Of a stretch of DNA of 64,000 nt, positions 21,062 to 43,956 are shown in pieces. Both the position numbers and the translations under genes were made by a program. Under the pieces are notes generated by a model that saw nothing but the letters and a program-made list of their open reading frames with translations, was not told the origin of the DNA and ran no database searches. The stretch comes from Microcaecilia unicolor. Lineage: Eukaryota. Positions within the stretch are counted from its first letter, which is position 1. Every line of letters begins with the position of its first letter. The stretch is taken from positions 62,498,339 to 62,562,338 of the forward strand of contig NC_044034.1 of NCBI RefSeq assembly GCF_901765095.1, in the 5' to 3' direction.

Positions 21062-21360
21062 CAGGATCGGGAGGCGGGGCTGGTGGTTGGGAGGCAGGGA
21101 TAGTGCTGGGCAGAGTTGTACGGTCTGTGCCAGAGCCGGTGGTGGGCAGCGGGACTGGTGGTTGGGAGGCGGGGATAGTGCTGGACAGACTTGTACGGTC
21201 TGTACCAGAGCCGGTGGTTGGGAGGCAGGGCGATGGTTGGGAGGTGAGGATAGTGCTGGGTAGACTTACACGGTCTGTGCCAGAGCCGGTGGTTGGGAGG
21301 AGGGGCAGGTGGTTGGGAGGCGGGGATAGTGCTGGGCAGACTTATACGGTCTGAGCCCTG
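21062..21360. repeat. Tandem repeat (minisatellite) with a period of about 77 bp and about 4 copies
   Basis: Unit 'ggtggttgggaggcggggatagtgctgggcagacttgtacggtctgtgccagagccggt' is repeated four times with minor variants. Confidence 0.8.
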
Positions 21361-24214: not shown

Positions 24215-24470
24215 GCAACCCTCCTCTCCCCGCCTACCCTCCCAGCACCAGGCAGGCAGGCCTCCCTCCCAGCACCAGGCATCCCTCCCTCCCACCAAGC
24301 ACCAGGCCTCCCTCCCTCCCACCCAGCATTCAGCATCAGGCCTCCCACCCTCTCTGCCACCCAGCACCAGGCCTCCCTCCCATCCAGCATCAGGCCTCCC
24401 TCCCTCCGAGCACCAGGCTGCCCGCCCTCCCTCCCTCCTAGCACCAGGGCCCCCCCCTCCTCCGAAATTT
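24215..24470. repeat. Minisatellite with a unit of about 21-24 bp, 'cctccctcccagcaccaggc'
   Basis: There are about 10 tandem degenerate copies. They give Pro/Ser-rich pseudo-ORFs on both strands. Confidence 0.8.
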
Positions 24471-25993: not shown

Positions 25994-26402
25994 GTCTGGC
26001 ATGTTTTGGACCTTCTCTATATCTATCTATGTATCTCTCTATCTCTATCTCATCCAGGAGTAGTATCTGAAGTCTGGGGATGTGTCTTTCCTATTCCATT
26101 ACTCATGCTTGTTATCCATCTTTATTTCAACTAGGATATTACAGAATTAGCTTATATTAGTGCTATAATTATTTAAATTGAATTCCTGTTTTTCACTTAG
26201 CCTATTAGAAAGTTATCCTCATTATCTCATTAACAAATTAAATCGCTAGCTTCATAACAAATGCCATAACATGCATTTGACTCCTTATGATTTTGACTTG
26301 TATAATTTTATCTGGATCAGTATCTCAGCTTAAAGTTCTGCAACTTAATCTGTGGCACTTGGGAGAATGGTTTAAGCAGATTGCTTTTCTTCATTTAGAG
26401 CG

Positions 26403-26697
26403 GGGGTTCTGAACCCAGTCCTCAGGACTCACCTAGCCAGTTAGGTTTTCAGGATACCCACAATGAGTTTGCATGACAGAGATTTGCATGACCTACCTCC
26501 ATTTCAAGGGTATGTAACCCAGTCCTCAGGACACATCAAACCAGTCTGGTTTTCAAGATATACATTGCAAATATGCATGAGAGAAATTTACAATCATTGC
26601 CTCCATTGTATGCAAATCTATCTCATGCATATTCATTGTGGGTATTTGAAAACCTAACTGGCTGGGTGTACCTGAGGATTGGGTTTAGAACCTCTGT
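26403..26697. mobile_element. MITE of about 295 bp with ~70 bp TIRs and an internal half-duplication, containing octamer-like ATTTGCAT motifs
   Basis: The left TIR is 'ggttctgaacccagtcctcaggactcacctagccagttaggttttcaggatacccacaatgagtttgcatga' and the right TIR is 'tcatgcatattcattgtgggtatttgaaaacctaactggctgggtgtacctgaggattgggtttagaacc'. The internal segment 'aacccagtcctcaggacacatcaaaccagtctggttttcaagatatacattgcaaatatgcatga' duplicates the left arm. Confidence 0.65.
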
Positions 26698-28204
26698 TCT
26701 AAAAGAGTAGGACACGTTGCTCTTTTTGGCTCTTGCTGGCTATGGGTATTGGAATCTAGTTGGTCAGTGTAAAGCAATTATGCAATAGGGACTGAAAAAG
26801 GATGGTTTACACAAAAACAAAATAAAACAGCATGGGTGAATAAAAACCAGGAGAGCATAAAAAGCATATTCATAGATCTTATAGAAACAAATAAAAAGGA
26901 TAATAACATACCAACTGATGCCAGACTGCTTACAAAACATGTACCTAAAGTTTTGTTTAAATATAAAATGTTTGGATTATGTGTGTTTGGCCTCTTTGGG
27001 TATGTGGTGTTTCGCTATTTGCTGTTGGCACCTACAACTTTATTGAGTCATAGGCTTTCACTGTGGCAGAAGCATGAAGTGTAATGTAATACAGTGGTGA
27101 TTTTGTGCTGGGTCACTGACCATGAACCTTTTCACCTGGGCAGCTTGTATAGCCTGAAGGGAAAGAGGCAGCCTCAGCACCTGACAGGGACTGAAGGAGC
27201 AGGAAGCAGCATCAGTGACCCAAATGAGCTGAAACGAGGAGAGGAGGAAGTCGATTCATTAGCCCTGTGGGTTGAGGAAAAGGAGTCCCAGTTTTCTTCC
27301 TGGTAGTTCTCCATGTACAGTGGACAACTGAGCAATGCCCCTTTTACTGCAGGCTGAAAATCTTTAGACAACCAGCCCTTATTCTGCTTCTTTCATCCAA
27401 GCCAGTGAAGGGCTTGAGGAGCCATACCTTTGGTTAACTGCTTTGCACCTGCCTGGAAACTGAAGCCCTGGGGCAGCTGTCCATTTCCCACCATAAGCCT
27501 CATCTCCCAATCAAGTTCCCATCACTAGGGGCATGGCACTGACTGGCCACTCTGCCAGTCACCCTGTTGAAGTTTGACTGTGCTGATGTGTGGTAGAGGC
27601 ATGGTCTGGTTGTTTTTTTTCATGGGGAGGGTGCAGTCTGTCTGCCACTCTTCTGGGAAGGTCAAGGTGGAAGAGGGTAGTTACAGCTCAGCTTCTAGAT
27701 TTTTCTTTTGGGAGGGGGGGCTTGTTTCCAGGGTAGGCACCACTTTGAATTAAACAAAAATATATATATATTAACAATGTCTTAACTGTACCAAGGGGAG
27801 AGGAGTTGGGGTAGAGAGAAGTTTGGCATCATTGTTCTCCCTTCTTTTATCCCATCCAAATAACACTTTAATGAAAATCACCACATGTGCGTGTATATGT
27901 GTATGTGTTTGAGAAACAGTTTGTGAACTCTTAGAACAGTGTGTATTTTAGTACAGTTTATACTCAAAAACATGATTAGATTCTAATCAAAACCCTAATA
28001 AGAGAGAAAACTATTCCCATTGAATACATATGTTATAAAAAATGATATATTTTGATTTTTTTTATTGAACTCCAAAAGAGACCCTCACAGGCTAAAATCA
28101 GTATACTTGCAATCTGTTGGAACTCTGTAACACTGCTCACAATAAATTGCTGGATCTGATTAACTGAATGTGAAAATTATTAGGTGAAGTAGATGACTCG
28201 CAAA

Positions 28205-28705
28205 ATGTTAGGAGCTTTCCTATGAAGAGAGGCTGAGAAGGCTAGGGCTTTTCAGCTTGGAGAAGAGACGGCTGAGGGGAGATATGATAGAAGTGTATAA
28301 AATAATGAGTGGAATGGATCGGGTGGATGTGAAGCGACTGTTCACGCTATCCAAAAATACTAGGACTAGAGGGCATGAGTTGAAGCTACAGTGTGGTAAA
28401 TTTAAAACGAATCGGAGAAAATTTTTCTTCACCCAACGTGTAATTAGACTCTGGAATTCGTTGCCGGAGAACGTGGTACGGGCGGTTAGCTTGACGGAGT
28501 TTAAAAAGGGGTTAGATAGATTCCTAAAGGACAAGTCCATAGACCGCTATTAAATGGACTTGGAAAAATTCCGCATTTTTAGGTATTACTTGTCTGGAAT
28601 GTTTTTACGTTTAGGGAGCGTGCCAGGTGCCCTTGACCTGGATTGGCCACTGTCGGTGACAGGATGCTGGGCTAGATGGACCTTTGGTCTTTCCCAGTAT
28701 GGCAC
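28205..28705 (+). mobile_element. CR1-like LINE 3' end: ORF2 C-terminus plus a 3'UTR with a terminal microsatellite
   Basis: ORF 28257-28553 contains 'RLRGDMIEVYKIMSGMDRVDVKRLFTLSKNTRTRGHELKLQCGKFKTNRRKFFFTQRVIRLWNSLPENVVRAVSLTEFKKGLDRFLKDKSI', which is the classic CR1 ORF2 C-terminal signature. The 3'UTR ends '...atgtacttatgta'. Confidence 0.8.
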
Positions 28706-29305
28706 TACTTATGTACTTATGTAGCTTCACAGTCTCAGCTCGATAAGGCTTTAATAGTCCTTGCTCCCCTGATCAAACCATCACGAAATCAAACCACTGT
28801 AGCTTGTGCTGTATGTACAAATTCACTTATTACAGTGCAATCATTGACAACTCACTTGTAACCTACTAAAAAGTCTTTACAAAAATAGTCACTCCAAATA
28901 TTTAATTTATAATTTTGTAGCTCTATTGAAGCAGCACCAATAATGTGGTCTTACTGACATCCAAACTCCACCGTGTCTAGCTCAAGACTTCAAGTTGGTT
29001 CGATCTTCAGCTTCTTCAGGAGTTGAATCAAATTGCTGTACTCTACAGGTCCACAGCCCAACATGTGAATAGGCAGTGGTGCTGAATATATGTACAAGGT
29101 AGTCACTGCTACTGGCATATGTATAGCGGCTATATTCAGCCATTGTACATATGGCTAAGCACTATGATTTAGGATTGCTTTCCCAGTACTCTTCAACTTT
29201 TCTATTTGTAGCCTTATAGGATAATTTTATAAAAGATGTCTAAATTGCTTTTATAAAATAGGCACTTTTTCACGTACTCCGAAGTTGTAATTGTGTGCCT
29301 GTACT

Positions 29306-29707
29306 CAGGGCCGCCGAGGGGGGGGGAGCCAGGGGGGACAAAATTCCCCAGGCCCGGGCCTCCAAGGGGGGCCCGGCGCCGCAGTCCCACCCGCCCTCCG
29401 TCGTCTACCGTCTGCCACAGGGCCGGGCCCCCTGCATTGAAATCACAGCGCCTCTCACCTCTGTGTGAAAGCGCAGCAGGGCAGCAGATCGCCTCCCTTC
29501 GGGCCTCCTTCCCTCCCTTTGTCCTGCCCTCGTCTGACGTAACTTCCGCGAGGGCGGGTCACAGGGGGGGAAGGAGGCCTGAAGGGAAGCAATCTGCTGC
29601 CTGCAGCGCTTTCACATGGAGGTGAGAGACGCTGTGATTTCAATGCAGGGGGCGGGGCCCCAGGGGCAGCCTTGCCCCAGGCCCGGCCCAGTCTCTCAGC
29701 GGCCCTG
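29306..29707. mobile_element. hAT-like MITE of 402 bp with TIR 'CAGGGCCGC.GAG' and 8 bp TSD 'CCTGTACT'. The body is a GC-rich nested palindrome with an exact TGACGTAA at its centre.
   Basis: The left end is 'cctgtact|CAGGGCCGCCGAGGGGG' and the right end is 'CTCAGCGGCCCTG|cctgtact'. The internal ~70 bp arms 'ccctgcattgaaatcacagcgcctctcacctctgtgtgaaagcgcagcagggcagcagatcgcctcccttc' and 'gaagggaagcaatctgctgcctgcagcgctttcacatggaggtgagagacgctgtgatttcaatgcaggg' flank the core 'gggcctccttccc...cgtctgacgtaacttccgcgagggcggg...gggaaggaggcc'. The TIR start CAGGGCCG is shared with the 4.85 kb hAT-like element. Confidence 0.65.
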
Positions 29708-30082
29708 CCTGTACTCTACACATGTTCTGCATATTTTATGTTTAAATCATTTTTATTCAAACAAACAAATCCAAGTACATTGCTACAACAACTGTCTGTA
29801 GAAATATCCCATTTCATCCAGTTTGTAAACTAACCTCCCAATTGCTACCCACTACACCTTTCCCATCCCTCCCCTCACCCCTCCCTCCCAAACATCCCTC
29901 CTCATCATTAAGTCTATAAGTTCAACAGGTGGCTCCGGGCTGAGGGTCTTAAAGTGTTCCAAAAGGGGCTCCAACTCTGTTGAAAACTATCTCCAGCTTT
30001 GGAATTAAAATCTGTAATTCCCACCCGCTCAATACGCATTAGAAATAGCATGTGCATACACCACTGTTATAGTGAAGGGTAT

Positions 30083-33000
30083 TTATGTCAGCCACTCTGC
30101 CAGAATTACCTGCTTGGATACAATAATGGCCCTAGAGACAAAGGATGCAAATCCACACGGCATCGGGTGTCCCAACTTAGGCTGTCCAAACAAGAGTGCA
30201 GGGTCGTAATGCCAACCTGTCTTCCACAAGCTAGATATGTGAAGCATGATTGCTTTCCAAAAACTTGCAATGCCTTTACAGGACCAGAACATATGTCCTA
30301 GGGTCACACCACTGGCTCCACACTTCAGACTTGACCCCTAAGGAGAAAGTCCCATATGAAATGCCGTTCGAGGAGATATATATAAACGGAGGACAAATTT
30401 GTATTGTAACTTCTGATAAACGCTGAATCGAAAGTATATGCGATTTAATTTGCGCTGCAGTGATGTTTACTTGTAAATCTCTTTGCCACAAAGACAACAA
30501 TCTTGAATAATCCAACTCAGGTATTGAGTCCCGTGTATGCCTGTGATGAAAAGAAAGCAACACCTTATGCTGCACTTCTAAAGAGAAAGCAGATGAAAGT
30601 TCTTCTTGTATTTCCTCTGTCATTGACTCCCAAGGCAGCGATGATACATAATGCCACAGTTGAGCATAATGGAACTCATCAAAATGTGGCAAGGCAAATT
30701 CTACTTGGAGACCTTGAAAAGGTTTTATACGATCTTCTTTGGAAACCACCTGTAGTAAGTACACAATACCTTGCTTCTTCCATCTGCGGAAGACAGAATA
30801 CAGTTGTCCTGGTGCAAAGGCCGCATTATCACAAATTGCCAAATATGGCGTTACCTTTGCAGAAAAACGATGTAATTGGCAAATCCACCTCCAAACTGCT
30901 TTTGCGGACTTCATAATCAAAGAATGTTTTAACACATTTGGTATGGACTCACCATTTGTGTGCAAATAACTACTGAAATGAACTCCCAGGGAGAGTTGTA
31001 ACTCCATAGTTGTATTACAGTAATCTTGAGTGGCTCTAAACCAGTCATTAATATGCTCATGCCACTGGCAATAGTAAGAAATCTTATGCTAAGTAATCCC
31101 AACCCCCCGTACTCCACCGGTATATATAAGGTTGATATGGGAAGACGAGCTTTCCTACCTTGCCAGAGAAAACACTGAACCAATGTGTTCAGTTTCCTTT
31201 CATCCCCCCATTTCAAATACAAAGGTAGGATCTGAAAGACATAAAGCCATCTGGGGACAATAAACATATTGAATAATGCTATACGTCCTAACAATGAAAT
31301 AGGTAAGGAGCCCCATGCATGCAACCTCAATTTTGTCTCCTTTAATAACCACTGAATATTTTTTTCATATAACAAATTTAAATCTGCTGGAATGTGTACT
31401 CCAAAATATTTAATTGAGCCCTGTGCCCAGTTAAGGGGAAACTGTTCTCTCCAATTTATTTGCCTTCCTGTTAATACAGGAAGAGCAAAGGATTTATTTA
31501 AGTTCATCTTGAAACCAGAAATGTGCCCAAATTGCCTAATACTTGTAAGCAGCAACTCTAGTGATTGGGGTGGATTTGTCAATATCAGTAATAAATCGTC
31601 AGCATAAGCCAGTCTTTGATACATTGATCTGCAAGAGAGATGCCCTCTATCCCCTTTGTAAGCGAGAGCATCCGGAGCAATGGCTCTAATGATATCACAA
31701 AAAATAAAGGAGAGAGGGGACATCCTTGCCTAGTGCCTCTTTCTATAATAAATTCTTTTTCTTTAATACCATTAATTAACACGCATGCCTGAGGATGATA
31801 GTAGAGAGCTTGTATCGTTTGTAAAAACCAACCAGTAATTCCCATAGCAGCCATAGTCCTATCCCACCTGGTCAAAGGCCTTTTCTGCATCCAAGCTAAC
31901 CACCAAGAATGGAACACCTTTATCTCTGCGAGATGCCATTGCCAGTAGTAAACGTCTGACATTATGCGCCGCTTGATGGTGTCATACAAACCCCACCTGC
32001 TCAGATCCTATCAATTTTGGTAGACACTGTGCCAATCTTTCAGCCAATATTTTAGCTAACAACTTAATGTCTACATTTAGAAGCAATATCGGCCTATAGG
32101 AGTCTGCCTGCTCTGATGATTTACCCGACTTTGGTATTAAAGTTATCAACGCGGTATTAGCATAAATGGGAAATTTACCTTGTTATATCACCTCCTCATA
32201 ATATTCTAGCACGGAGGCCAGAACCGCTGGGGGTAAGGTCTTATAATAATCTCCTGTGAATCCATCAGGACCTGGAGCAGAATGAAATTTTAGCGACTTT
32301 ACCGCTTTTTGCAACTCAGTTAACGATAGGGGTGCGTTCAAGCAGTCCAGATCTGCTAAGGACAGTGTAGGTAAACCTGAGCGCTTTAAATAATCCAATA
32401 GATTTCGCTCATGAGGTATCAACTCTGCTTTATATAGGGAGGAGAAATATTCTGTGAATAGCTCCCTATTTCCCCTTGATCACTTGTAAGCACTCCACGC
32501 TTGTCCCGTAGGGCTGCCACGGTCCGAGGCCATCCCCAATTCTTAATTAGTCGTGCAAGCATTCGTCCCGGTCTATTACCAAACCTTTGCAATCTATACT
32601 TATAATAAAGAGATGACCTATGGGCATATTTTCAAAGCACTTTGGGAGGCTGTTCCATAGGTTTCTATGGAACTTTGGGAGGCTAAGTGCTTTGAAAATG
32701 AGCTTGCTAGTCTCTATTTTGTAAAATAGAGTATTGAGAGCTATTTGAGTGGCTTTTAAGTTCTCCAGAGTAGCCTTTGTAGGCCTTTGCACATGGGCCC
32801 GTTTAGCCCTTCGTAACTGTTTCTAAATGCAAAATACCTGCTGCTCTACGCTTTTTCTTCATACTACAAAATGCAATGCTGTCTCCCCGTATCACCACCT
32901 TCGATGCAGACCAAAATAATAGTGGCTGATTTTGAGCTTGTTCACCATTATTAGCCGCATACTAAGCCCACCTTATATTTATGTATTTCTGAAATTGAGG

Positions 33001-33704
33001 GTCTGTGTACAAGTAGGCTGGCTATTTCCTCCCTTTTCCACCCGGACTATCAGCAGGTATTTCTAGGTCCACCCACACTAGAGCATGGTCTGAAATTTCT
33101 TCGGGCCCTATGGTCTCTGCTAATGTCAGAGGAAACAAGGAACATTCCATCAAAATATAATCCAAACAGGCTTGTGTTCCATGAGCCCTTGACTGGTGAT
33201 TGTAATCTCGCTCACCCGGTTGCAGTGCCCTCCATACATCAACTAAGTTAAGAGATTTTGAGAGTATAGAGAACTCTCTGGTCCGTTGCCCTGAATAATG
33301 CAAAGAATTCGGGTTGGAACAGTCATAAACCGGGTCCGAAACTAAGTTAAAATCACCCAGTACCATCAACTTTGAGTTCTTATGTGCAAGCAACATCCAA
33401 CCAGCGATTTAAAAAAGACTGGGTCATAACAATTGAGACCATACAACACCACTAGCAGAAAGTCTATGCCTTGCAGCCATACATGTAAAATTATGTAATT
33501 CCCCTGTGTCCCTTTTGTCACCAAAGTAGCTTTATACGATAGCCCCTTTCGAAACAAAACTGCCATTCCCCCTTTCTGCCCCTGTGAGGCAGCCGCGTAA
33601 ATCTCCCCTACCCAGGATCTCTGCAACTTAGCGTGTTCTAAATCCGTGAGACGTGTCTCTTGCAAACAAGCTATATCTGATTTATGGCGTTTTAATGCTG
33701 ACAA
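30083..33704 (-). mobile_element. L1-like LINE copy, degraded, with ORF2 split by frameshifts into EN, RT and C-terminal pieces
   Basis: Five minus-strand ORFs cover the domains. 33366-33704 has the endonuclease N-terminus 'SALKRHKSDIACLQETRL'. 31585-31989 has RT 'GTRQGCPLSPLFFVISLEPL'. 30929-31723 has RT 'YADDLLLIL'. 30276-31007 holds the C-terminal domain. 30083-30307 holds the 'LGHMFWSCKGIASFW' Cys motif. The layout is collinear with the L1 at 11536-13668. Confidence 0.8.
30083..33704 (-). pseudogene. L1 ORF2 pseudogene (EN-RT-C domains, frameshifted)
   Basis: Frames switch between successive ORFs at about 33366-33396, 32183-33022, 31585-31989 and 30929-31007. Stop codons lie between the segments. 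Confidence 0.7.
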
Positions 33705-35071
33705 AATTTTAGAGTGCTTTATCGGGGAACTAATGCCCCCTACATTCCAAGATATTACTCATGTAGGCAAACGCTATTTAAAGAAACTAACATTGGTAAA
33801 GAGATATCCCCTATGCACATTCCTATCCCCTCCATTAAAACCTGTAAACATACATTCAGCAACATATTCATACAGATTCAATGCAATTTTGACCCTTCTT
33901 GCCCAGGTTAACAGTACCCTCAACCCTTCTATTTCCCGAGAACTCCTCCCCCTTCCCATGTAACCATTGTAAATCCAGTACAGGTCCCCTCATCCTTCCT
34001 ACCTTCCCTCCCCATTCCCCCCCAACCCTAAACTTAACCCAATCCATCTACCCAGGGAACAGACCTGGGGATGGAAGCAAAGATCACATTAAGTGCTAGG
34101 GACCCCAACCTCCAAATGCAACTGCTTATAGGCTATGTCACCATAATACACTATGTTAAAGCAACTAGTAATATATTTACTCCTGTACCACACCAACAAA
34201 TGCAACATGGATTAATCCGCATCAATCAATCTGTTGTTCAATAATGCTGATTTTGCCTCTGTTACAGTCTTGAAAGCTTGCCATTGACCTTGAATTGAAA
34301 CCCTTAATTGTGCTGGATATTGTAAAGCAAAATGAATTCTTTTATAAGAGCTGAGCAGAGAGGATGAAACTGTTGACGCTGCTTTGTGCGGGGGAGAAAT
34401 CTTGTAAAATCATCAGTATGTTGCGCCCGTCGTGCATCAGTGAGTCTCTCTGTAATTTAAACCCTCGAAGAATTTCAACTTTATGTCTGTAATTCAATAT
34501 TTTTGCCATAATTACTCTTGGTCAGTTCTGATCCTCCGATCTGCGCCCGACGCAATGTGCCCTTTCCACCACTACCGGGCCCATTGTGTCTGTAAGGGCC
34601 AATTCCTTAGCCAGCCAAGTCGCTAGGTTCCATTCAGGGAGTTTTTCTGTTAACCCCACTTTCTCCGAGGACAAGCAGGCTGCTTGTTCTCACTGATGGG
34701 TGACGTCCACGGCAGCCCCTCCAATCGGAATCTTCACTAGCAAAGTCCTTTGCTAGCCCTCGCGCGCCCGCGCGGCCGTCTTCCCGCCCGAAACCGGCTC
34801 GAGCCGGCCAGTCTTCTTTCGTCCGCACTTGGTACGGTTGTGTTTTTCGCCGTGTCGAGCCCCGGAGAGTCGACCTCGCGCGTCCTTTGTCTAATCGACG
34901 TGTTTTTTATTCGGAAAATATTAGAATTCGTTCGGGAAGTGCTCCGGAAGCCCCCTTGGGTTTCGTTTTGCCCCTTCCCGTATTTTCAGTCTTTGCCCCG
35001 GTAAGTTTTCTTTCGTCGTCGGGGTAGGCCTCTTTTCGGCCTCGGTCGAGATTTTTCTCCCTCAAAGTTTT

Positions 35072-37370
35072 TTGGTGCTCATTTTCGTCATTTTGGATTT
35101 TGATTTCGCCGGCGTGATTTTTCCGCCCATGACATCGAAGCCTTCCAGCGGCTTCAAGAAGTGCACCCAGTGCGCCCGGGTTATCTCGCTCACTGACAGG
35201 CACGCGTCGTGTCTTCAGTGTCTGGGGGCCGAGCACCGCCCTCAGGCCTGTAGTCTGTGTTCCCTTTTGCAAAGGCGGACTCAGGTAGCGAGATTGGCCC
35301 AGTGGAACGTTTTGTTCTCGGGCTCTTCGTCGGCATCGGCACCGGGGGTATCGTGTACATCGACGTCTTCAGCGTCCAGAGCTTCATCCTCGGCCGCCAG
35401 TGCATCGAGTGCATCGAGGCATCGGCCCTCTGCATCGGCGCCGAGACATCGGATAGCTGCATCGACGTCGGTGGTACCGGGACCTCGTCTGCTGATGTCG
35501 TCGGACGGTGGTGCATCGTCAGGTGAGGGCTGTCCATTCCCCTGCTGGTGGCGGTGAGCCTTCGGGTGGGTCTCCCCCTACCCTGAGGGCTCCTGCGGTA
35601 CAGCCCCCCCGAGACCGACCTCCTTCGGCCTCGGCCCCGAGGAAGCGACGGCTGGATTCTACATCCTCCTCGTCGGTACCGGGAAGCTCCGGTGACATGC
35701 TTCGTTCCAAGAAGTCGAAGAAGCATCGTCACCGGTCCCCTTCCCGTGTCGGTACCGAGAGCTCTGGGTCGCCGAGGGAGTCGGCACCCACCAGGCATCG
35801 GCACCGAGAGGACCGCTCACCCTCTGTTCAGGAGGTGTCGATGCGCTCCACTCTGGACAGCCCGGAACAGCCTCCACGCCCGGAACAGGTTCTGACGTCG
35901 ACGCCTGCATCAACCTCCATGCCTTTCTCTGCAGCCGCTCTGAACGAGAGCCTCCGGGCCGTTCTCCCAGAGATTCTGGGAGAGCTGTTGCGCCCTACCC
36001 CTCCGGTACCGGCGGTGCTTGCGCCACCGGTACCGTCGAGCGTGGCGCCGGCTGGCCCATCGCCCGAGGTGAGGTCTCCGGCGTTGGTGCCGCGTGCGGT
36101 GCCGGCTGCCGTCGCCTCCCAGGAGGGCTCCCCGACTACGTCGGCGGAGGGAGCTTCGCCGATGCGGGCGAGGGAGTCTACCTCTCGACGCCCCCATCGT
36201 GGACGTGGCTCCACGGAGTCGAGTCGGGCACGGTTGCAGACACAGGTCCGTGAACTTGTGTCTGACACCGAGGGTGAGGCCTCGTGGGAAGAGGAAGAAG
36301 ACCCCAGATATTTCTCTGACGAGGAGTCTGAGGGTCTTCCTTCCGATCCTACTCCCTCTCCTGAAAGACAGCTTTCTCCTCCTGAGAGTCTGTCTTTCGC
36401 TTCCTTTGTCCGGGAGATGTCTACGGCCATCCCCTTCCCGGTGGTTGTGGAGGACGAGCCCAGGGCTGAAATGTTTGAGCTCCTGGACTATCCTTCTCCA
36501 CCTAAGGAAGCGTCCACTGTTCCCTTGCACCATGTCCTGAAAAAGACATTGCTTGCGAACTGGACAAAACCATTAACTAACCCCCACATCCCCAAGAAGA
36601 TCGAGTCCCAGTACCGGATCCATGGGGACCCAGATCTGATGCGCACTCAGTTGCCTCATGATTCTGGAGTTGTGGATCTGGCCCTAAAGAAGGCTAAGAG
36701 TTCTAGGGAGCATGCTTCGGCGCCCCCGGGCAAGGACTCTAGAACCTTAGACTCCTTTGGGAGGAAGGCCTACCATTCTTCTATGCTCGTGGCCAAAATT
36801 CAGTCTTACCAGCTCTACACGAGCATACACATGCGGAACAATGTGCGGCAGTTGGCGGGCTTGGTTGATGCTCTCCCCCCTGAGCAAGCCAAACCTTTTC
36901 AGGAGGTGGTCAGGCAGCTGAAGGCGTGCAGAAAATTCCTGGCCAGAGGGGTGTATGACACCTTTGATGTTGCGTCCAGGGCCGCTGCTCAAGGTGTGGT
37001 GATGCGCAGGCTCTCATGGCTGCGTGCCTCCGACCTGGAGAATAGAATCCAGCAGCGGATTGCGGACTCGCCTTGCCGTGCAGATAACATTTTTGGAGAG
37101 AAAGTCGAGCAGGTGGTAGAGCAGCTCCACCAGCGGGACACCGCATTCGACAAGTTCTCCCGCCGGCAGCCTTCAGCTTCTACCTCTACAGGTAGAAGAT
37201 TTTTCGGGGGAAGGAAGACTGTTCCCTACTCTTCTGGCAAGCGTAGGTACAATCCTCCTTCTCGACAGCCTGCGGCCCAGGCTAAGCCCCAGCGCGCTCG
37301 CTCTCGTCAGCAGCGTGCGACTCAGCAAGGCCCCTCGGCTCCCCAGCAAAAGCAAGGGACGAGCTTTTGA
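35072..37370 (+). CDS. DIRS ORF1, gag-like, with an N-terminal CxxC...CxxC zinc-finger-like segment and a Ser/Pro/Arg-rich region
   Basis: ORF 35508-37370 of 620 aa is preceded in a neighbouring frame by 35072-35557 'CTQCARVISLTDRHASCLQCLGAEHRPQACSLCS'. Either a frameshift or alternative start lies near 35510, so the exact start is uncertain. The frame is continuous to a stop at 37370, which overlaps the ORF2 start as is usual for DIRS. Confidence 0.6.
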
Positions 37371-39192
37371 CTGGCTCCAGCAGAGCATAGCCGACATCCA
37401 AGTGTCAGTGCCGGGCGACCTGCCAGTCGGAGGGAGGTTGAAAGCTTTTCACCAAAGGTGGCCTCTCATAACCTCCGATCAGTGGGTTCTGCAAATAGTC
37501 CGGCAAGGATACACCCTCAATTTGGCCTCAAAACCTCCAAATTGTCCACCGGGAGCTCAGTCTTACAGCTTCCAGCACAAGCAGGTACTTGCAGAGGAAC
37601 TCTCCGCCCTTCTCAGCGCCAATGCGGTCGAGCCCGTGCCATCCGGGCAAGAAGGGCTGGGATTCTATTCCAGGTACTTCCTTGTGGAAAAGAAAACAGG
37701 GGGGATGCGTCCCATCCTAGACCTAAGGGCCCTGAACAAATATCTGGTCAAAGAAAAGTTCAGGATGCTTTCCCTGGGCACCCTACTTCCCATGATTCAG
37801 GAAAACGATTGGCTATGCTCTCTGGACTTGAAGGATGCCTACACACACATCCCGATACTGCCAGCTCACAGACAGTATCTGCGATTTCAGCTGGGCACAT
37901 GTCACTTCCAGTACTGTGTGCTACCCTTTGGGCTCGCCTCTGCGCCCAGGGTGTTCACAAAGTGCTTGGCTGTAGTAGCAGCAGCACTTCGAAGGCTGGG
38001 AGTGCACGTGTTCCCATATCTCGACGATTGGCTGGTGAAGAACACGTCCGAGGCAGGAGCCCTGCAGTCCATGCAGATGACTATTCGCCTCCTGGAGCTA
38101 CTGGGGTTTGTGATAAATTACCCAAAGTCCCATCTTCTCCCAGCGCAGAGACTCGAATTCATAGGAGCTCTGCTGGATTCTCGGACGGCTCGCGCCTATC
38201 TCCCAGAGGCGAGAGCCAACAACTTGTTGTCCCTCGTCTCTCGGGTGCGAGCGTCCCAGCAGATCACAGCTCGGCAGATGTTGAGATTGCTGGGCCACAT
38301 GGCCTCCACAGTTCATGTGACTCCCATGGCCCGCCTTCACATGAGGTCTGCTCAATGGACCCTAGCTTCCCAGTGGTTTCAGGCTGCTGGGGATCTAGAA
38401 GACGTGATCCACCTGTCCACGAGTTTTCTCGAATCCCTGTATTGGTGGACGATTTGGTCCAATTTGACTCTGGGACGTCCTTTCCAAATTCCTCAGCCAC
38501 AAAAAGTGCTGACCACGGATGCGTCTCTCCTGGGATGGGGAGCTCATGTCGATGGGCTTCACACCCAAGGAAGCTGGTCCCTCCAGGAACGCGATCTACA
38601 GATCAATCTTCTGGAGTTGCGAGCGATCTGGAACGCTCTGAAGGCTTTCAGAGATCGGCTGTCCCACCAAATTATCCAAATTCAGACAGACAACCAGGTT
38701 GCCATGTACTACGTCAACAAGCAGGGGGGCACTGGATCTCGCCCCCTGTGTCAGGAAGCCGTCAGCATGTGGCTCTGGGCTCGCCGTCACGGCATGGTGC
38801 TCCAAGCCACATATCTGGCAGGCGTAAACAACAGTCTGGCCGACAGGTTGAGCAGGATTATGCAACCTCACGAGTGGTCGCTCAACTCCCGAGTGGTGCG
38901 CCAGATCTTCCAAGCGTGGGGCACCCCCTTGGTGGATCTCTTCGCATCTCGAGCCAACCACAAAGTCCCTCAGTTCTGTTCCAGGCTTCAGGCCCACGGC
39001 AGACTGGCATCGGATGCCTTCCTCCTGGATTGGGGGGAGGGCCTGCTGTATGCTTATCCTCCCATACCTCTGGTGGGGAAGACTTTGTTGAAACTCAAGC
39101 AAGACCGAGGCACCATGATTCTGATTGCTCCTTTTTGGCCGCGTCAGATCTGGTTCCCTCTTCTTCTGGAGTTATCCTCCGAAGAACCGTGA
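37315..39192 (+). CDS. DIRS ORF2, reverse transcriptase, RNase H and the post-RNH domain; 625 aa, intact
   Basis: RT motifs include 'YFLVEKKTGGMRPILDLRALNKYL', 'LDLKDAYTHIPI' and 'FPYLDDWLV'. The RNase H has 'LTTDASLLGWGAHVDG' and 'IQTDNQVAMYYVNKQGGTGSRPL'. The C-terminal segment 'LLYAYPPIPLVGKTLLKLKQDRGTMILIAPFWPRQIWFPLL' is typical of DIRS. Confidence 0.9.
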   Translation: MRLSKAPRLPSKSKGRAFDWLQQSIADIQVSVPGDLPVGGRLKAFHQRWPLITSDQWVLQIVRQGYTLNLASKPPNCPPGAQSYSFQHKQVLAEELSALLSANAVEPVPSGQEGLGFYSRYFLVEKKTGGMRPILDLRALNKYLVKEKFRMLSLGTLLPMIQENDWLCSLDLKDAYTHIPILPAHRQYLRFQLGTCHFQYCVLPFGLASAPRVFTKCLAVVAAALRRLGVHVFPYLDDWLVKNTSEAGALQSMQMTIRLLELLGFVINYPKSHLLPAQRLEFIGALLDSRTARAYLPEARANNLLSLVSRVRASQQITARQMLRLLGHMASTVHVTPMARLHMRSAQWTLASQWFQAAGDLEDVIHLSTSFLESLYWWTIWSNLTLGRPFQIPQPQKVLTTDASLLGWGAHVDGLHTQGSWSLQERDLQINLLELRAIWNALKAFRDRLSHQIIQIQTDNQVAMYYVNKQGGTGSRPLCQEAVSMWLWARRHGMVLQATYLAGVNNSLADRLSRIMQPHEWSLNSRVVRQIFQAWGTPLVDLFASRANHKVPQFCSRLQAHGRLASDAFLLDWGEGLLYAYPPIPLVGKTLLKLKQDRGTMILIAPFWPRQIWFPLLLELSSEEP

Positions 39193-40331
39193 AGATTGGA
39201 GTGTTTTCCGACCCTCATCACGCAGGACGAAGGGGCTCTTCTGCATCCCAGCCTCCGGTCCCTGGCTCTCACGGCTTGGATGTTGAGAGCGTAGACTTTG
39301 CCTCTTTGGGTCTGTCAGAGGGTGTCTCCCGCATCTTGCTTGCTTCCAGGAAAGATTCCACTAAGAGGAGTTACTTCTTTCTGTGGAGGAGGTTTGCCGT
39401 CTGGTGTGACAGCAAGGCCCTAGATCCTCGCTCTTGTCCTACACAGACCCTGCTTGAATACCTTCTGCACTTGTCTGAGTCTGGCCTCAAGACCAACTCT
39501 GTAAGGGTTCACCTTAGTGCAATCAGTGCATACCATTACCATGTGGAAGGTAAGCCGATCTCAGGACAGCCTTTAGTTGTTCGCTTCATGAGAGGTTTGC
39601 TTTTGTCAAAGCCCCCTGTCAAGCCTCCTACAGTGTCATGGGATCTCAATGTCGTTCTCACCCAGCTGATGAAACCTCCTTTTGAGCCACTGAACTCCTG
39701 CCATCTGAAGTACTTGACCTGGAAGGTCATTTTCTTGGTGGCAGTTACTTCAGCTCGTAGAGTCAGTGAGCTTCAGGCCCTGGTAGCCCAGGCCCCTTAC
39801 ACCAAATTTCATCATAACAGAGTAGTCCTCCGCACTCACCCTAAGTTCCTGCCAAAGGTCGTGTCGGAGTTCCATCTGAACCAGTCAATTGTCTTGCCAA
39901 CATTCTTTCCCCGTCCTCATTCCTGCCCTGCTGAACGTCAGCTGCACACATTGGACTGCAAGAGAGCATTGGCCTTCTATCTGGAGCGGACACAGCCCAA
40001 CAGACAGTCCGCCCAATTGTTTGTTTCTTTTGATCCCAATAGGAGGGGAGTGGCTGTGGGGAAACGCACCATATCCAATTGGCTAGCAGATTGCATTTCC
40101 TTCACTTACGCCCAGGCGGGGCTGGCTCTTGAGGGTCATGTCACGGCTCATAATGTTAGAGCCATGGCTGCGTCGGTAGCCCACTTGAAGTCAGCCTCCA
40201 TTGAAGAAATTTGCAAAGCTGCGACGTGGTCATCTGTCCACACATTCACATCTCATTACTGCCTGCAGCAGGATACCCGACGCGACAGTCGGTTCGGGCA
40301 GTCAGTTCTTCAGAACCTGTTTGGGCTTTAG
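39193..40331 (+). CDS. DIRS ORF3, tyrosine recombinase (YR), the C-terminal part of the long 37458-40331 frame
   Basis: The YR region has 'SKRSYFFLWRRFAVWCD', 'VTSARRVSELQAL' (the catalytic R box), 'GHVTAHNVRAMAAS' (the H-x-x-R box) and 'ATWSSVHTFTSHY' (the catalytic Tyr region). The exact YR start inside the overlapping frame is uncertain. Confidence 0.8.
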
Positions 40332-40861
40332 GATCCAACTCCACCCCCCGAGGGCCCTGTTTGTTCTGTTCCAGGCTGCACTCTCAGTTAGTTGGTAAAT
40401 TTTTTTAGGTCAATCTCAGTTATGTCCTCGCCGTTGCGAGGCCCAATTGACCATGGTTGTTGTTTTGAGTGAGCCTGGGGGCTAGGGATACCCCATCAGT
40501 GAGAACAAGCAGCCTGCTTGTCCTCGGAGAAAGCGAATGCTACATACCTGTAGAAGGTATTCTCCGAGGACAGCAGGCTGATTGTTCTCACAAACCCGCC
40601 CGCCTCCCCTTTGGAGTTGTGTCTTCCCTTCTCTTGTCTTGCTACATATGAAACTGGCCGGCTCGAGCCGGTTTCGGGCGGGAAGACGGCCGCGCATGCG
40701 CGCGAGGGCTAGCAAAGGACTTTGCTAGTGAAGATTCCGATTGGAGGGGCTGCCGTGGACGTCACCCATCAGTGAGAACAATCAGCCTGCTGTCCTCGGA
40801 GAATACCTTCTATAGGTATGTAGCATTCGGTATACGCAAGTTGTTCCTGTGGGAGCGGTTT

Positions 40862-41341
40862 TCAAGATCTTCCAGTTTGTTCATTTGTTCCTTTAGCTGC
40901 TATGTCTGGGCCGTACACGTGGGAGTCATCCTCCAGAGCCGAAACCCTGGCTTCTAAGTCCCCCGTGCGGGTCCCCAAACCGTCCAGCATCGTTTGAAAC
41001 AAATCCAGTTTTTGATCCATCATTTCCCACTTCTGCTCCCAGGCTTTCTCTACTGCTGATGTTAGCTGCAGGAGCTGGGTGTCAGTAAAGGCCGGTGGCG
41101 GCAAGGGAGGATCCTTCGCCATGTTGGCCTCCACACTGCCAGGCTTACTTTTTTCTTTAACAGCCTTATGCGCATCCCAGCAGGCAATTTGTTCAAATGT
41201 TTGTCCATAAAGAAATGTCCCACCACCATCCAGCACCAAACAAAGATATAGTGCAGCAGTTAAGATGATATGGATGCGAGGGCCCCAGAGCTTCAGCAAG
41301 ATGGTGCTGTTCAGCTCATAGCAGCACGTGATGTTCTGCAT
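40862..41341 (-). repeat. L1 ORF1-like coiled-coil fragment, possibly the 5' part of an L1 copy
   Basis: The ORF has 'QLLQLTSAVEKAWEQKWEMMDQKLDLFQTMLDGLGTRTGDLEARVSALEDD', a heptad-rich coiled coil similar in style to the region upstream of 'RRNNLR' in the 10086-10560 fragment. The RRNN motif itself is not intact here. Confidence 0.35.
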
Positions 41342-41439
41342 ATTTTATAAAATACACATGTACATTACAATTTCAGCTCCTCTTCATCCAAACTATGCCT
41401 GCGAGGGCTCATGTATAAGTGTGCACAATCCTTTAGGCA

Positions 41440-41760
41440 CTGTCACGAACCCACCTGGGGTTACCCTGCGGCCACTTAGATGGTCTATCCCCAGCACAGC
41501 TCAGGTCCACCTGCACCTGCTTCTTGTGCTCTACACTAGTATTCTCCTCCCACTGACTGGGTCACAACTGCCTCTGGGTGAGTCTCCCACTCACAGATTA
41601 TCCCCAGTGATTTCTAGGTTTCTGGAGCCACACTCCCAGTGGTCCCACAGTCCCCAGAGAGCACTCACAGACCAACACACAAACCACCAGGATTCTTTAT
41701 CAATCCAGGCAAACAGGGTGAACAAACAATTTGTTTATTCTCTTAAAAAATATTGAACAG
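41440..41760 (+). repeat. Partial copy of repeat family R1
   Basis: Segment 'ccagcacagctcaggtccacctgcacctgcttcttgtgctctacactagtattctcc...gtgatttctaggtttctggagccacactcccagtggtcccacag' matches the other R1 copies. Confidence 0.5.
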
Positions 41761-42699
41761 TGGAACAAAATAGTTCAATTGGCAAACAATAACAGGTAAC
41801 TGAAATATGGATCAATTATAACACTAACTAAACACTTACATACTGCCTAGAAAGTACCTGGGGAGATCAGGGCATATATCTGTTCACAGAGCTTCAGCAA
41901 AACAGATCTCTCTCTCTCTCTTCTTCTCCCAGGCTGAAACTGAAGCAACAGCCAGCATCTGCTGGGTAATTTCAAAACTCCAGGCCAGTCATAGCCCAGA
42001 ACAGTTAAGTTTCAAATAAAAACTGGTTACATCACTACAGGCACTTCCTATTATCTGTGTTCCAAATAAAAGAAAGAGATGTCAGTCCTCTGTAACAGCT
42101 TAAAGCGTAAACATGCACGATCTGCTGGCCAAACAGGAGAAATATACTTCAGACATATTTAAGACAGGAAAATATCCAATACATTTTACAGACTTAAAAC
42201 CCACTGTTTCTTCACAGGCACATATACTTACATGCATGTAAACAGTTACAGAGTTTTTTTAAAAGGCCTTTTCTGCCCCTTAGCATCAGCTCTACACACA
42301 GAAAATCTTTTATAAAATTACCCCCACAGTGGATAGATGGTGCTGCAATTATTTAGAAAGGGTCTTGACACCTTGTTGGACAAATGAGCATCAACTACTT
42401 TTTGTAGATCCTCTGATATTTCTTTTGACCTTAGAATGAGTTGCTACTAAATTTTTTTTGGTGAAGGCCAAACTCAGAATCTTTTAGATGCCCAAATATT
42501 CTCATGCAGATAGATTCACTTTGCAGAACAGATTACTTGTTACCCAGTTATTTAAGCACTTGAATTTAATTAGCCAATTAATTGTGCTAAGGGAGGTAGG
42601 ATACACTTACTGTTCACACACCGATGGTAAACTAGTCTTATTGTTCCTACTTTGTAAATTATAGTTTCTCATGAAACATGGAATTGTTTAATTTATACC

Positions 42700-43400
42700 C
42701 TTTTTGTTACATAAGCAAATAGTCCGATCCCTATTTAGCTCATGGTGGCCAGAATTAGCCCCGGATATTCAGTGCTGGGCCGTGTTTAGGCAACCGCATT
42801 GAATATCTGGGGGTAATTCAATGGTGTTAACTGCCGGAGCTTATGTAAGTCCAGGATGATAGTCAGCTGGGATCTGCATAAAACACCTAGGCAGATCCCA
42901 GCTGAATATTGGCGAGGACCTGCATAAAAACAAATGCAAAGTCTGGCATTCCCCTCCCCTCCCTAGGCCCTCTGGGCTTGCCTAAAAAGTTCCTGGTGAT
43001 CTAGAAGAAACTCGGGTAGGAGAAATTCCCACTTGTTCCTGTTTGGTACCAGCCTGCATTCCAAAATGGCTGCTGCAGCCTCGCTAGACCCTATGTAAGT
43101 TTAACCAGGTCACAGCTGATATCGGACCAGTGCCCGGTTAAATTTGTTGCATAAAATTTTAGGACAGCCTTTTTCTGTCGTAACTTTATGCTCCAACCTA
43201 GCTGCTTTGCAGTCTGAATATTGCCGCTAACCAGCCTGAGCTGTGTGCCACCTGATTTCCAACCTTAGCTCACCCCTAACCTCACTGGTTGGCCATTTAG
43301 TGGCAGCATTAATCGGCACTGTCCGGTTAAGTGCTGTTGAATATTGCTGGTTAATCCTGACTAAGCAGTTTAAATGGCCTGGAGCTTCTTCTTTGAATAT
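42700..43400. repeat. Unclassified repeat with reiterated 'tgaatattg' and 'ccggttaa' motifs
   Basis: The motifs recur as 'ccggatattcagtgctggg', 'gctgaatattggcgagg', 'tgaatattgccgctaaccag' and 'gttgaatattgctggttaatcc'. 'cagctg..atc.ga' appears on both sides of the region. Confidence 0.3.
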
Positions 43401-43956
43401 AGGGTGGATTGTTTTCAATTAAACAAAAGTCTTATGGTAAGAATTTGTACTTATTATTTAGGTGTTCACAAACTGTCTTAGCACTGTACGTACATATCCA
43501 CCTCTTCCACTATACTTTGTGCATCTGATGAAGTGGACTCTTGTTCTTGAAAGCTTATGCCTCAATAAATCTTTCAGGCACCACCTGCATCTTTTGATGA
43601 TTTTGTTTCTACAGATTAACCTGGCTACCCCTCTGGCTAATTTCTCCTAGAGAATCATCCTGAAAAAAAGTTGAAAAGCAAGGGGAGAATAAGGTTTAAA
43701 AAGCAAATATAGAAAATGCATACATGTATCCACTGGAGTACTGTCCTTGGAATCTGCTACTGTTTAAAATCTCACTTTGGGAATATCTCAAATTATTTAT
43801 CATAAATAGTTTTTAACTTGGTTGTCAACTAATGTTATCTGTGACTCAAATTATCTTTTTACTCTTTTTTTTCCCCATGATAAGTATTCTAGCATACCAA
43901 GACTGATGTCCTTGAACATGTAACCATTTATTGCTTGTGTATTTTATTATGCAAAG

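What the first reader, a model, noticed from the sequence alone, without database searches (positions are those of the whole stretch)
29306..29707. hAT-like MITE whose body is a nested palindrome centred on an exact TGACGTAA
There is an 8 bp TSD (CCTGTACT) and TIRs beginning CAGGGCCG. Inside are ~70 bp inverted arms around a ~80 bp palindromic core. At the core's centre is 'cgtctgacgtaacttccgcgagggcggg'. TGACGTAA matches a CRE/ATF-type bZIP half-site variant, and GC-box-like 'gggcggg' is adjacent. MITEs that carry transcription-factor-like motifs into introns are a known route to new regulatory elements. This copy lies in a PARP4 intron about 0.4 kb downstream of a degraded L1 3' end.
Basis: partly seen in the sequence, partly recalled or inferred. 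Interest (0 to 1): 0.5.

Follow-up and report, generated by a model that had tools for sequence, protein, structure and literature searches.

The report
hAT-type MITE in a PARP4 intron
A 402-base, non-coding "jumping gene" remnant (a miniature hAT-type DNA transposon with a long internal hairpin) sits in an intron of PARP4; the insertion is real but of an ordinary kind, and the idea that the motif at its centre regulates genes remains untested.

Summary
The described structure is real. Element 29306-29707 (402 bp, 69% GC in a 45% GC window) has a perfect 8-bp target-site duplication, CCTGTACT. Its 13-nt terminal inverted repeats match 12/13 and start with CAGGG. A GGCCCGG motif is repeated near both ends. 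The element has no coding capacity. A window-wide scan finds only two such TSD+TIR structures, against 0.005 expected by chance.

The "nested" palindrome is one imperfect 254-bp palindrome. Its arms are about 118-120 nt and 87% complementary, and a 1-nt indel splits the match. TGACGTAA lies in the 16-nt loop, followed by an ETS-like ACTTCCG and a GC box.

The element sits in an 18-kb PARP4 intron (25994-43956). The upstream LINE end is CR1-like, not L1, and lies 0.58 kb away, not 0.4 kb.

Best reading: a non-autonomous hAT-superfamily transposon, moved in trans and now decaying neutrally as an intronic passenger. The regulatory reading is neither supported nor refuted. No other copy is in the window, and no DNA from the same species could be reached, so core conservation across the family could not be tested.

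A second, unrelated hAT-like MITE with the same architecture lies at 47814-48139. Interest is low: this is a new member of a known kind.

The parts
29298..29305 (.). Left copy of the 8-bp target-site duplication CCTGTACT
   Evidence: (D6)
29306..29318 (+). Left terminal inverted repeat CAGGGCCGCCGAG
   Evidence: I4, 12/13 complementary
29319..29412 (+). Left subterminal region. It is G/C-run rich and non-palindromic, carries GGCCCGG/CCGGGCC motifs at 29351, 29354 and 29370, and holds the direct-repeat block CCCCAGGCCCGGGCCTCC at 29346-29363.
   Evidence: D2; motif 5 times against 0.53 expected, P = 0.0004
29413..29532 (+). Left arm of the single long imperfect palindrome. It includes an internal copy of the TIR 8-mer CAGGGCCG at 29418.
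   Evidence: (I1, I2, I19)
29533..29548 (+). Unpaired 16-nt loop TCTGACGTAACTTCCG at the palindrome centre. It holds the CRE-variant TGACGTAA (29535-29542) and the ETS-like ACTTCCG (29542-29548, reverse complement CGGAAGT).
29549..29666 (+). Right arm of the palindrome. Its first bases include the GC box GGGCGGG at 29552-29558.
29667..29694 (+). Right subterminal region, with CCCCAGGCCCGGCCCAGT at 29675-29692. This is a direct repeat of 29346-29363 and includes GGCCCGG at 29680.
   Evidence: D2
29695..29707 (+). Right terminal inverted repeat CTCAGCGGCCCTG
   Evidence: I4
29708..29715 (.). Right copy of the 8-bp target-site duplication CCTGTACT
25994..43956 (+). Host intron of PARP4 (17,963 bp), lying between the exon ending ...GIYFGDSI (25993) and the exon starting (S)TCIKYSKPSETDG (43957). 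Besides the MITE it holds an antisense L1-like element and a DIRS-like element.

Best explanation
This is one copy of a non-autonomous, miniature DNA transposon (MITE), most likely of the hAT superfamily.

How it got here (inferred from what is established for hAT elements): a hAT transposase encoded elsewhere in the genome recognised the CAGGG... terminal inverted repeats and the GGCCCGG-type subterminal repeats. It cut the element out of a donor site and pasted it across a staggered 8-bp cut in what is now an 18-kb PARP4 intron. Repair of that stagger produced the CCTGTACT duplication.

What the copy is now: it encodes nothing and cannot move by itself. Its 254-bp internal palindrome is part of the element's body, not a second insertion. 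The two arms now differ by about 13%, with CpG positions decaying fastest, as expected for neutral decay after an insertion tens of millions of years ago.

Likely effect in place (inferred): it is an intronic passenger. Transcribed within the PARP4 pre-mRNA, it would fold into a double-stranded stem of about 115 bp, a typical substrate for RNA editing or dicing. The CRE-like, ETS-like and GC-box motifs at the hairpin tip are best treated as family sequence of unknown significance, possibly a relic of promoter sequence, and not as a demonstrated regulatory element.
For: Shown here:
- Perfect 8-bp TSD and 12/13 TIRs exactly abutting it.
- Only 2 such structures in 64 kb against 0.005 expected. 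A relaxed scan, requiring CAG...CTG ends, at least 10/12 TIR matches and at least 7/8 TSD matches, finds the same two.
- The TIR starts with CAGGG.
- The subterminal motif GGCCCGG/CCGGGCC occurs 5 times against 0.53 expected, P = 0.0004.
- The element is 69% GC in a 45% GC window, a sharp compositional island bounded exactly by the TIRs.
- The only long open frame has no protein relatives among 5.8 billion sequences.
- Nothing in Rfam reaches a gathering threshold.
- The arms differ at 15 of 117-119 aligned positions (9 transitions, 6 transversions). 3 of 6 CpG pairs are decayed in one arm, against about 5.7% per arm at other sites.
- A second element with the same architecture but unrelated sequence, two introns downstream in the same gene, shows that this genome hosts such MITEs.

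From the literature:
- hAT elements have 8-bp TSDs and TIRs of 5-27 bp. The hAT MITE Mar has the TIR CAG(G/A)GGTAGGC (PMC3517528).
- hAT transposases bind subterminal repeats through BED domains and integrate across 8 bp (PMC10368747).
Against: - No second copy of this family was found, either in the window or in anything reachable. "Family" and "high copy number" are therefore assumed.
- No autonomous partner with matching TIRs was seen, so the superfamily call rests on TSD length and TIR sequence only.
- The TSD CCTGTACT fits neither nTnnnnAn nor nnnTAnnn. This is weak evidence, since these are statistical preferences and this is a single site.
- The motif cluster CRE + ETS + Sp1 within 24 bp is unique in the 64 kb and never arose in 5000 shuffles of the element. 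"Inert" may therefore be too dismissive.
Confidence: 0.8

Rival explanations
1. One reading: the MITE family carries a compact CRE/ATF + ETS + Sp1 cassette, displayed at the tip of a hairpin or cruciform. Copies such as this one act as intronic enhancers or cryptic, possibly bidirectional, promoters.
For: - TGACGTAA is used as a working CRE taken from the human parkin promoter (PMC5517452).
- ACTTCCG (reverse complement CGGAAGT) and GGGCGGG follow within 24 bp.
- This is the only place in the 64 kb with at least 3 promoter-motif types within 30 bp, and 0 of 5000 shuffles reproduce the cluster.
- CpG observed/expected is 0.52 in the element, against 0.32-0.35 in its flanks.
- The unrelated second MITE also has an ETS-like core, ACTTCC, at its palindrome centre.
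Against: - The motif list was chosen after seeing the sequence, and with hundreds of known motifs some match is expected.
- No conservation, chromatin or expression data are available.
- The arms decay like neutral DNA.
- Retention of the three loop CpGs is uninformative. At about 25% loss per CpG, all three survive 42% of the time.
- The higher CpG observed/expected is also what a GC-rich insert of moderate age would show.
Confidence: 0.1
2. It is a TIR transposon, but of a superfamily other than hAT that also makes TSDs of about 8 bp, such as P-like, Mutator-like, Merlin or Zisupton.
For: - Superfamily assignment from one copy rests only on TSD length and the first TIR bases.
- The TSD does not fit either hAT target consensus (PMC3517528, PMC10368747).
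Against: - The 5'-CAGGG terminus, short 13-nt TIR, exact 8-bp TSD and subterminal short repeats are the classical hAT combination.
- Mar, a proven hAT MITE, starts with CAG(G/A)GG.
- From general knowledge, Mutator and Merlin termini usually start with G and make 9-bp TSDs, and P-type TIRs differ. These comparisons were not tested here.
Confidence: 0.08
3. The palindrome is the working part. When transcribed in the PARP4 pre-mRNA, it acts as a precursor of small RNAs (MITE-derived miRNA or endo-siRNA) or as a regulated ADAR-editing hairpin.
For: - The stem is very stable, at -316.5 kcal/mol with z = -17.8.
- It lies on the sense strand of an expressed gene's intron.
- Sub-threshold Rfam hits are all to miRNA hairpin families.
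- From general knowledge, MITE palindromes have given rise to miRNA genes, for example MADE1 to mir-548.
Against: - Every Rfam hit is far below its gathering score (best 87 bits against 200 for MIR839). The hits go to many unrelated plant and animal families on both strands, so they reflect only a generic long hairpin.
- The stem is about 115 bp, far longer than an animal pre-miRNA.
- No small-RNA data are available.
Confidence: 0.07
4. It is a composite: an independent palindromic (foldback-type) element inserted into an older hAT MITE, or a post-insertion inverted duplication. Either would make the "nesting" real.
For: - The palindrome excludes the termini. There are 107 non-palindromic bases on the left but only 41 on the right.
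- The TIR 8-mer CAGGGCCG recurs at the start of the left arm, at 29418 (I19).
Against: - No TSD of any length flanks the inner palindrome (read).
- Composition is uniform across the element.
- The apparent two-level nesting is caused by one 1-nt indel.
- The second MITE, at 47814-48139, has the same layout of TIR, GC-rich subterminal region and central palindrome. This suggests an architecture, not an accident.
Confidence: 0.04

Closest known systems
Ds1-type and other non-autonomous Ac/Ds elements (hAT superfamily, maize)
   Same: About 400 bp and non-coding. They share only short TIRs and subterminal repeats with the autonomous element, have an 8-bp TSD, and are mobilised in trans (PMC3260210 abstract).
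   Different: Ds1 comes from plants, is AT-rich and has 11-bp TIRs of a different sequence. Ds1 has no long GC-rich internal palindrome. For the present element no autonomous partner is known.
Mar, a hAT (Buster family) MITE of Drosophila willistoni
   Same: It has an 8-bp TSD and short imperfect TIRs of 11 bp that start with CAG(G/A)GG. It is non-coding and often lies in or near genes (PMC3517528).
   Different: Mar is 610 bp and AT-rich. Its TSDs fit nnnTAnnn, and a relic full-length element was found.
Tol2 and Hermes (autonomous hAT elements)
   Same: The mechanism inferred here: transposase binding to TIRs plus interspersed subterminal repeats, and integration across 8 bp giving 8-bp TSDs (PMC10368747).
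   Different: They are 3-5 kb and encode the transposase, and their subterminal repeats are AAGT-type. The present element has only the cis sequences.
Palindromic MITEs that became hairpin-RNA genes, such as MADE1 giving mir-548 in primates (general knowledge, not tested here)
   Same: A MITE whose body is a near-perfect palindrome, often intronic, that folds into a long hairpin when transcribed.
   Different: MADE1 is an 80-bp Tc1/mariner MITE with a TA TSD, and the whole element is the palindrome. Here the palindrome is internal and three times longer. No miRNA family match reaches threshold.
Second MITE in the same window, 47814-48139
   Same: It has an exact 8-bp TSD (TGTGAGGG), 13-nt TIRs matching 12/13 and starting with CAG, 73% GC, G/C-run subterminal regions with a direct-repeat block near each end, a central 120-bp palindrome at 87%, and an ACTTCC core at the centre. 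It also lies in a PARP4 intron.
   Different: There is no significant sequence similarity to the target element (P = 0.40). The TIR sequence differs (CAGTGGCGTTCCA), and it has no CRE-like motif.

Membership tests
hAT superfamily (non-autonomous member) | 8-bp target-site duplication | tested here: met
   CCTGTACT is 8/8 identical on both sides and directly abuts the TIRs. Definition from PMC3517528.
hAT superfamily (non-autonomous member) | Short TIRs (5-27 bp) with a 5'-YARNG / CAG-type terminus | tested here: met
   The TIRs are 13 nt, match 12/13 and begin with CAGGG. The length range is from PMC3517528. The YARNG consensus is from general knowledge.
hAT superfamily (non-autonomous member) | Target-site preference nTnnnnAn (Ac family) or nnnTAnnn (Buster family) | tested here: inconclusive
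   CCTGTACT fits neither pattern, and neither does TGTGAGGG of the second element. These are statistical preferences, and one site cannot decide.
hAT superfamily (non-autonomous member) | Short subterminal repeats near both ends (transposase BED-domain binding sites) | tested here: met
   GGCCCGG/CCGGGCC occurs 5 times (29351, 29354, 29370, 29423, 29680) against 0.53 expected in dinucleotide shuffles, P = 0.0004. Binding itself was not tested. The concept is from PMC10368747.
hAT superfamily (non-autonomous member) | An autonomous element with the same termini that encodes a hAT transposase (BED, DDE/RNase-H-like and hATC domains) | not testable with these tools
   No hAT transposase ORF appears in the window's ORF list. 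No DNA from the same species could be reached.
MITE (miniature inverted-repeat transposable element) | Small size (under about 800 bp), TIRs plus TSD, no coding capacity | tested here: met
   The element is 402 bp. The only open frame (110 aa, partly in the flank) has no homologue at E <= 0.01.
MITE (miniature inverted-repeat transposable element) | Multiple, homogeneous copies in the genome | not testable with these tools
   There is no other copy in the 64 kb. Pattern scans of the metagenome and prokaryote collections gave 0 hits, as expected for vertebrate DNA. Three turtle and lizard loci hold none.
Functional CRE/ATF site | Sequence match to TGACGTCA or an accepted variant | tested here: met
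   TGACGTAA is at 29535-29542. The same 8-mer is the CRE of the human parkin promoter (PMC5517452).
Functional CRE/ATF site | Occupancy by CREB/ATF, activity, or evolutionary conservation | not testable with these tools
   No chromatin, expression or orthologous sequence data are available.
Known miRNA or other RNA families (Rfam 15) | Score at or above the family's gathering threshold | tested here: not met
   There were 0 matches at gathering in the whole window. The best sub-threshold hit is MIR839, 87 bits against 200, and the hits scatter over many unrelated hairpin families.

The most novel reading that the evidence does not exclude
This genome may hold GC-rich non-autonomous DNA transposons built as long hairpins whose tips carry compact housekeeping-promoter cassettes (here CRE/ATF TGACGTAA + ETS CGGAAGT + Sp1 GGGCGGG within 24 bp). 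If so, transposition would scatter ready-made CpG-island-like, possibly bidirectional, promoter or enhancer modules into introns. The second hAT-like MITE has an ETS-like core at its centre. The large palindromic element at about 19-20.6 kb has CArG-like and YY1-like motifs around its centre. Both would be further examples of this design.
Probability: 0.07. Interest if true: 0.55.

Novelty: new member of a known kind. Interest (0 to 1): 0.2.

Why it matters
As it stands this is routine repeat annotation: one more hAT-type MITE in a vertebrate intron. It would matter only if the family consensus keeps the CRE-ETS-Sp1 loop and copies show promoter or enhancer chromatin. That would be a clear case of a DNA transposon spreading a composite regulatory cassette. 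The practical value here lies in the corrections and additions to the annotation:
- The palindrome is single, not nested.
- The neighbouring LINE is CR1-like.
- The intron boundaries are now defined.
- A second MITE of the same design was identified in the same gene.

Tried and rejected
1. Finding family members through spurious ORFs. The 105-aa frame through the MITE was searched against 5.8 billion proteins, and nothing scored E <= 0.01.
2. Exact-pattern scans. Conserved arm segments, including versions tolerant of CpG decay, gave 0 hits in metagenome contigs and genome contigs.
3. Reaching DNA from the same species.
   - PARP4 exon translations match at best 66% (birds), 61% (Sceloporus) and 55% (frogs).
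   - The DIRS reverse transcriptase in the window matches at best 48% (turtles, salamanders).
   - Exact look-ups of five window ORFs all failed.
   - So the source species, or its TE proteins, is not in the reachable collections.
4. Loci from Chrysemys, Pogona and Macrochelys (L001-L003) hold no relatives of either MITE. Only an 80-bp CR1 3' end matches, at 85-89%.
5. Rfam found nothing at gathering, and the E-value hits are generic hairpin matches. The miRNA-family reading was rejected.
6. Relatedness of the two MITEs was rejected (P = 0.40).
7. The nested-insertion reading found no inner TSD. The apparent nesting is a 1-nt indel.
8. Species identification. Uncorrected PARP4 distances place the source nearer to sauropsids than to frogs or mammals, but this is not resolved.
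9. Literature searches for TGACGTAA together with transposons found nothing relevant.

Full report
OBSERVATION

CCTGTACT occurs at 29298-29305 and again at 29708-29715. Between these copies the element begins CAGGGCCGCCGAG and ends CTCAGCGGCCCTG, a 13-nt terminal inverted repeat with one mismatch (I4). The 11-nt direct repeat reported by the tool (TGCCTGTACTC) is the 8-bp duplication plus chance identities with the TG and C of the TIR ends. Only an 8-bp duplication keeps the TIRs symmetric.

I scanned the whole window for an exact 8-bp duplication directly flanking a 13-nt inverted repeat with at most 1 mismatch, for elements of 50-3000 bp. The scan returned two hits: this element and one at 47814-48139. 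In 200 first-order Markov simulations of the window the mean was 0.005 hits. A relaxed scan (CAG...CTG ends, at least 10/12 TIR matches, at least 7/8 TSD matches) found the same two. The structure is therefore not chance. The element is also a sharp compositional island, 69% GC in a 45% GC window.

INTERNAL ANATOMY

The element matches its own reverse complement from 29420 to 29660 at 85.6% (E = 1e-73). The repeat finder splits this into two arm pairs, 61 nt at 90% and 53 nt at 87%. An explicit alignment of the arms shows one continuous palindrome, 29413-29532 against 29549-29666, interrupted by a single-base indel near 29480. It has 104 matches, 9 transitions and 6 transversions. The "nested palindrome" is therefore one imperfect palindrome.

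Its 16-nt loop is TCTGACGTAACTTCCG (29533-29548). TGACGTAA occupies 29535-29542, and the symmetry axis falls between 29540 and 29541.

The parts outside the palindrome are asymmetric, about 107 nt on the left and about 41 nt on the right. They carry a short motif, GGCCCGG/CCGGGCC, five times against 0.53 expected (P = 0.0004 in 5000 dinucleotide shuffles). They also carry an 18-nt direct repeat near each end, at 29346-29363 and 29675-29692 (D2).

As a single strand the element folds far better than shuffles. As RNA it reaches -316.5 kcal/mol with z = -17.8. As DNA it reaches -167.8 kcal/mol with z = -16.7.

CONTEXT

I ran tblastn with a human PARP4 sequence recalled from memory. The hits validate themselves, with E-values down to 1e-20. 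They place nine PARP4 exons on the + strand between 2767 and 58114.

The element lies in the intron between the exon ending at 25993 (CATCAG|GTCTGG) and the exon starting at 43957 (tgcaaAG|TACCTGC). This intron is 17,963 bp long. "PARP4 intron" is correct.

The LINE 3' end upstream is not L1. Its translation...LGLFSLEKRRLRGDMIEVYK...TRGHELKL...FFTQRVIRLWNSLPENVV...FKKGLDRFL, and its TACTTATG x2 tail are CR1-type. This judgement rests on my knowledge of CR1 ORF2 C-termini. It is supported by 85-89% matches of the last 80 bp to turtle loci. The fragment ends at about 28722, 584 bp before the element. An L1-like ORF2 lies antisense at 30276-33704, and a DIRS-like element with long open gag, RT and tyrosine-recombinase frames lies at about 35.1-40.4 kb in the same intron.

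WHAT IT IS

The hAT combination is present:
- an exact 8-bp TSD;
- short TIRs starting with CAGGG;
- short repeats near both ends;
- a length of 402 bp;
- no coding capacity, since the one 110-aa frame has no relative at E <= 0.01.

The literature defines hAT elements by 8-bp TSDs and TIRs of 5-27 bp. The proven hAT MITE Mar has TIRs CAG(G/A)GGTAGGC (PMC3517528). hAT transposases bind interspersed subterminal repeats with their BED domains and integrate across 8 bp (PMC10368747).

Three things could not be shown. There is no partner transposase. There is no second copy. The TSD fits neither the Ac (nTnnnnAn) nor the Buster (nnnTAnnn) target preference, although one site is too few to judge that.

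I rate "TIR/TSD DNA transposon" as near certain, "hAT superfamily" at about 0.8, and "member of a multi-copy MITE family" as assumed.

HOW IT WORKS

This part is inferred. The element was mobilised in trans by a hAT transposase that recognised the TIRs and subterminal repeats. It was inserted by cut-and-paste with an 8-bp staggered cut. It cannot move alone.

The arms differ at about 13% of positions. Three of six ancestral CpG pairs have decayed in one arm, about 25% per CpG copy, against about 5.7% per arm at other sites. This is the pattern of neutral decay in methylated DNA. If the inserted copy was a perfect palindrome, about 6% change per arm implies an age of tens of millions of years. 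A perfect TSD (probability about 0.37 at that divergence) and one TIR mismatch are compatible with this.

In place, the element is transcribed as part of the PARP4 pre-mRNA. It would form a duplex of about 115 bp, a plausible editing or dicing substrate, but nothing shows that this is used. Rfam gives no match at gathering thresholds. The E-value hits, best 87 bits against a threshold of 200, scatter over unrelated plant and animal miRNA families on both strands and reflect only a long hairpin.

THE MOTIF CLAIM

TGACGTAA is an accepted CRE variant, the CRE of the human parkin promoter used in reporter constructs (PMC5517452). It overlaps ACTTCCG, whose reverse complement CGGAAGT is an ETS core, and GGGCGGG follows four bases later. 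All three lie within 24 bp.

In shuffles of this GC-rich element, TGACGTAA arises with P = 0.0004, and the three-motif cluster arose in none of 5000. I also scanned with a hand list of 12 common promoter motifs. This is the only place in the 64 kb with three motif types within 30 bp.

These numbers are descriptive. The motifs were picked after seeing the sequence, and the universe of possible motifs is large. No evidence of binding, activity or conservation is available.

- No other copy is in the window.
- Four pattern scans of the large collections gave nothing.
- The source species is not represented among reachable proteins or contigs. PARP4 matches at best 66% and the DIRS reverse transcriptase at best 48%, and five exact look-ups failed.
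- Three sauropsid loci hold no relatives.

COMPARISON AND NOVELTY

The element works like Ds1 or Mar: cis sequences only, mobilised in trans. Its internal palindrome resembles palindromic MITEs that have become hairpin-RNA genes, but it meets no RNA-family threshold.

The second element, at 47814-48139, has the same layout. It has the TSD TGTGAGGG, the TIR CAGTGGCGTTCCA, 73% GC and a 120-bp central palindrome at 87%, yet no significant sequence similarity to the first. The layout therefore recurs in this genome.

This is a new member of a known kind. Interest is low (0.2). The only reading with some novelty, hairpin-tip promoter cassettes spread by MITEs, is given about 7%.

Noticed in passing
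window 47814-48139: A second hAT-like MITE in another PARP4 intron. It is 326 bp and 73% GC, with an exact 8-bp TSD (TGTGAGGG), TIRs CAGTGGCGTTCCA / TGGTACGCCACTG matching 12/13, a direct-repeat block CACCCGGGGCAGA(T/C)CGCC near each end, and a central palindrome at 47959-48078 (87%). The centre, GGAACAGGTTACTTCCTGTTC, has an ETS-like ACTTCC core. It shows no significant similarity to the target element.
   Followed up: partly
window 18993-20611: A GC-rich element of about 1.6 kb whose interior is a large nested palindrome. The arms span about 19300-19741 and 19786-20250, built partly from tandem units of about 90 bp, and the centre is at 19742-19785. Candidate termini GGCCCAGATGATCA...TGATCATGAGGGCC (12/14) are flanked by TAA (or CTAAG), which suggests a PIF/Harbinger-type non-autonomous element. 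A CArG-like CCATATAAGG sits at the centre (19749), and GCCGCCATTTTG (YY1-like) and GC boxes lie nearby.
   Followed up: partly
window 35100-40400: A DIRS-like retroelement in the same intron, with long open frames for a gag-like protein (35508-37370), RT/RNase H (37315-39192) and a tyrosine recombinase (C-terminal part of 37458-40331). It appears intact and so possibly young. The closest proteins are only 44-50% identical (turtles, salamanders). A second, degraded DIRS-like RT lies at about 54.2-56.6 kb.
   Followed up: partly
window 5-1747 (+), 11536-13668 (-), 30276-33704 (-): Three L1-like ORF2 copies, two of them with uninterrupted frames of 580-710 aa. This suggests recently active L1-type LINEs in the genome. 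The third lies antisense immediately downstream of the MITE, with an AATAAA about 40 bp from the MITE's right TSD.
   Followed up: no
window 28200-28722 and 4311-4628: CR1-like LINE 3' ends that are 69% identical to each other. The last 80 bp match loci from Chrysemys and Macrochelys at 85-89%. With the PARP4 distances (closest to turkey at 65% and Sceloporus at 61%, frog 54%), this hints at a slowly evolving sauropsid source. This is unresolved.
   Followed up: partly
window 21069-21357 and 24232-24460: GC-rich tandem arrays. One has a 75/151-bp unit in 3.8 copies containing GGGCAGACTTATACGGTCTGTGCC. The other has degenerate 23-54-bp CCTCCC/CAGCACCAGG units that give open frames on both strands.
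   Followed up: no
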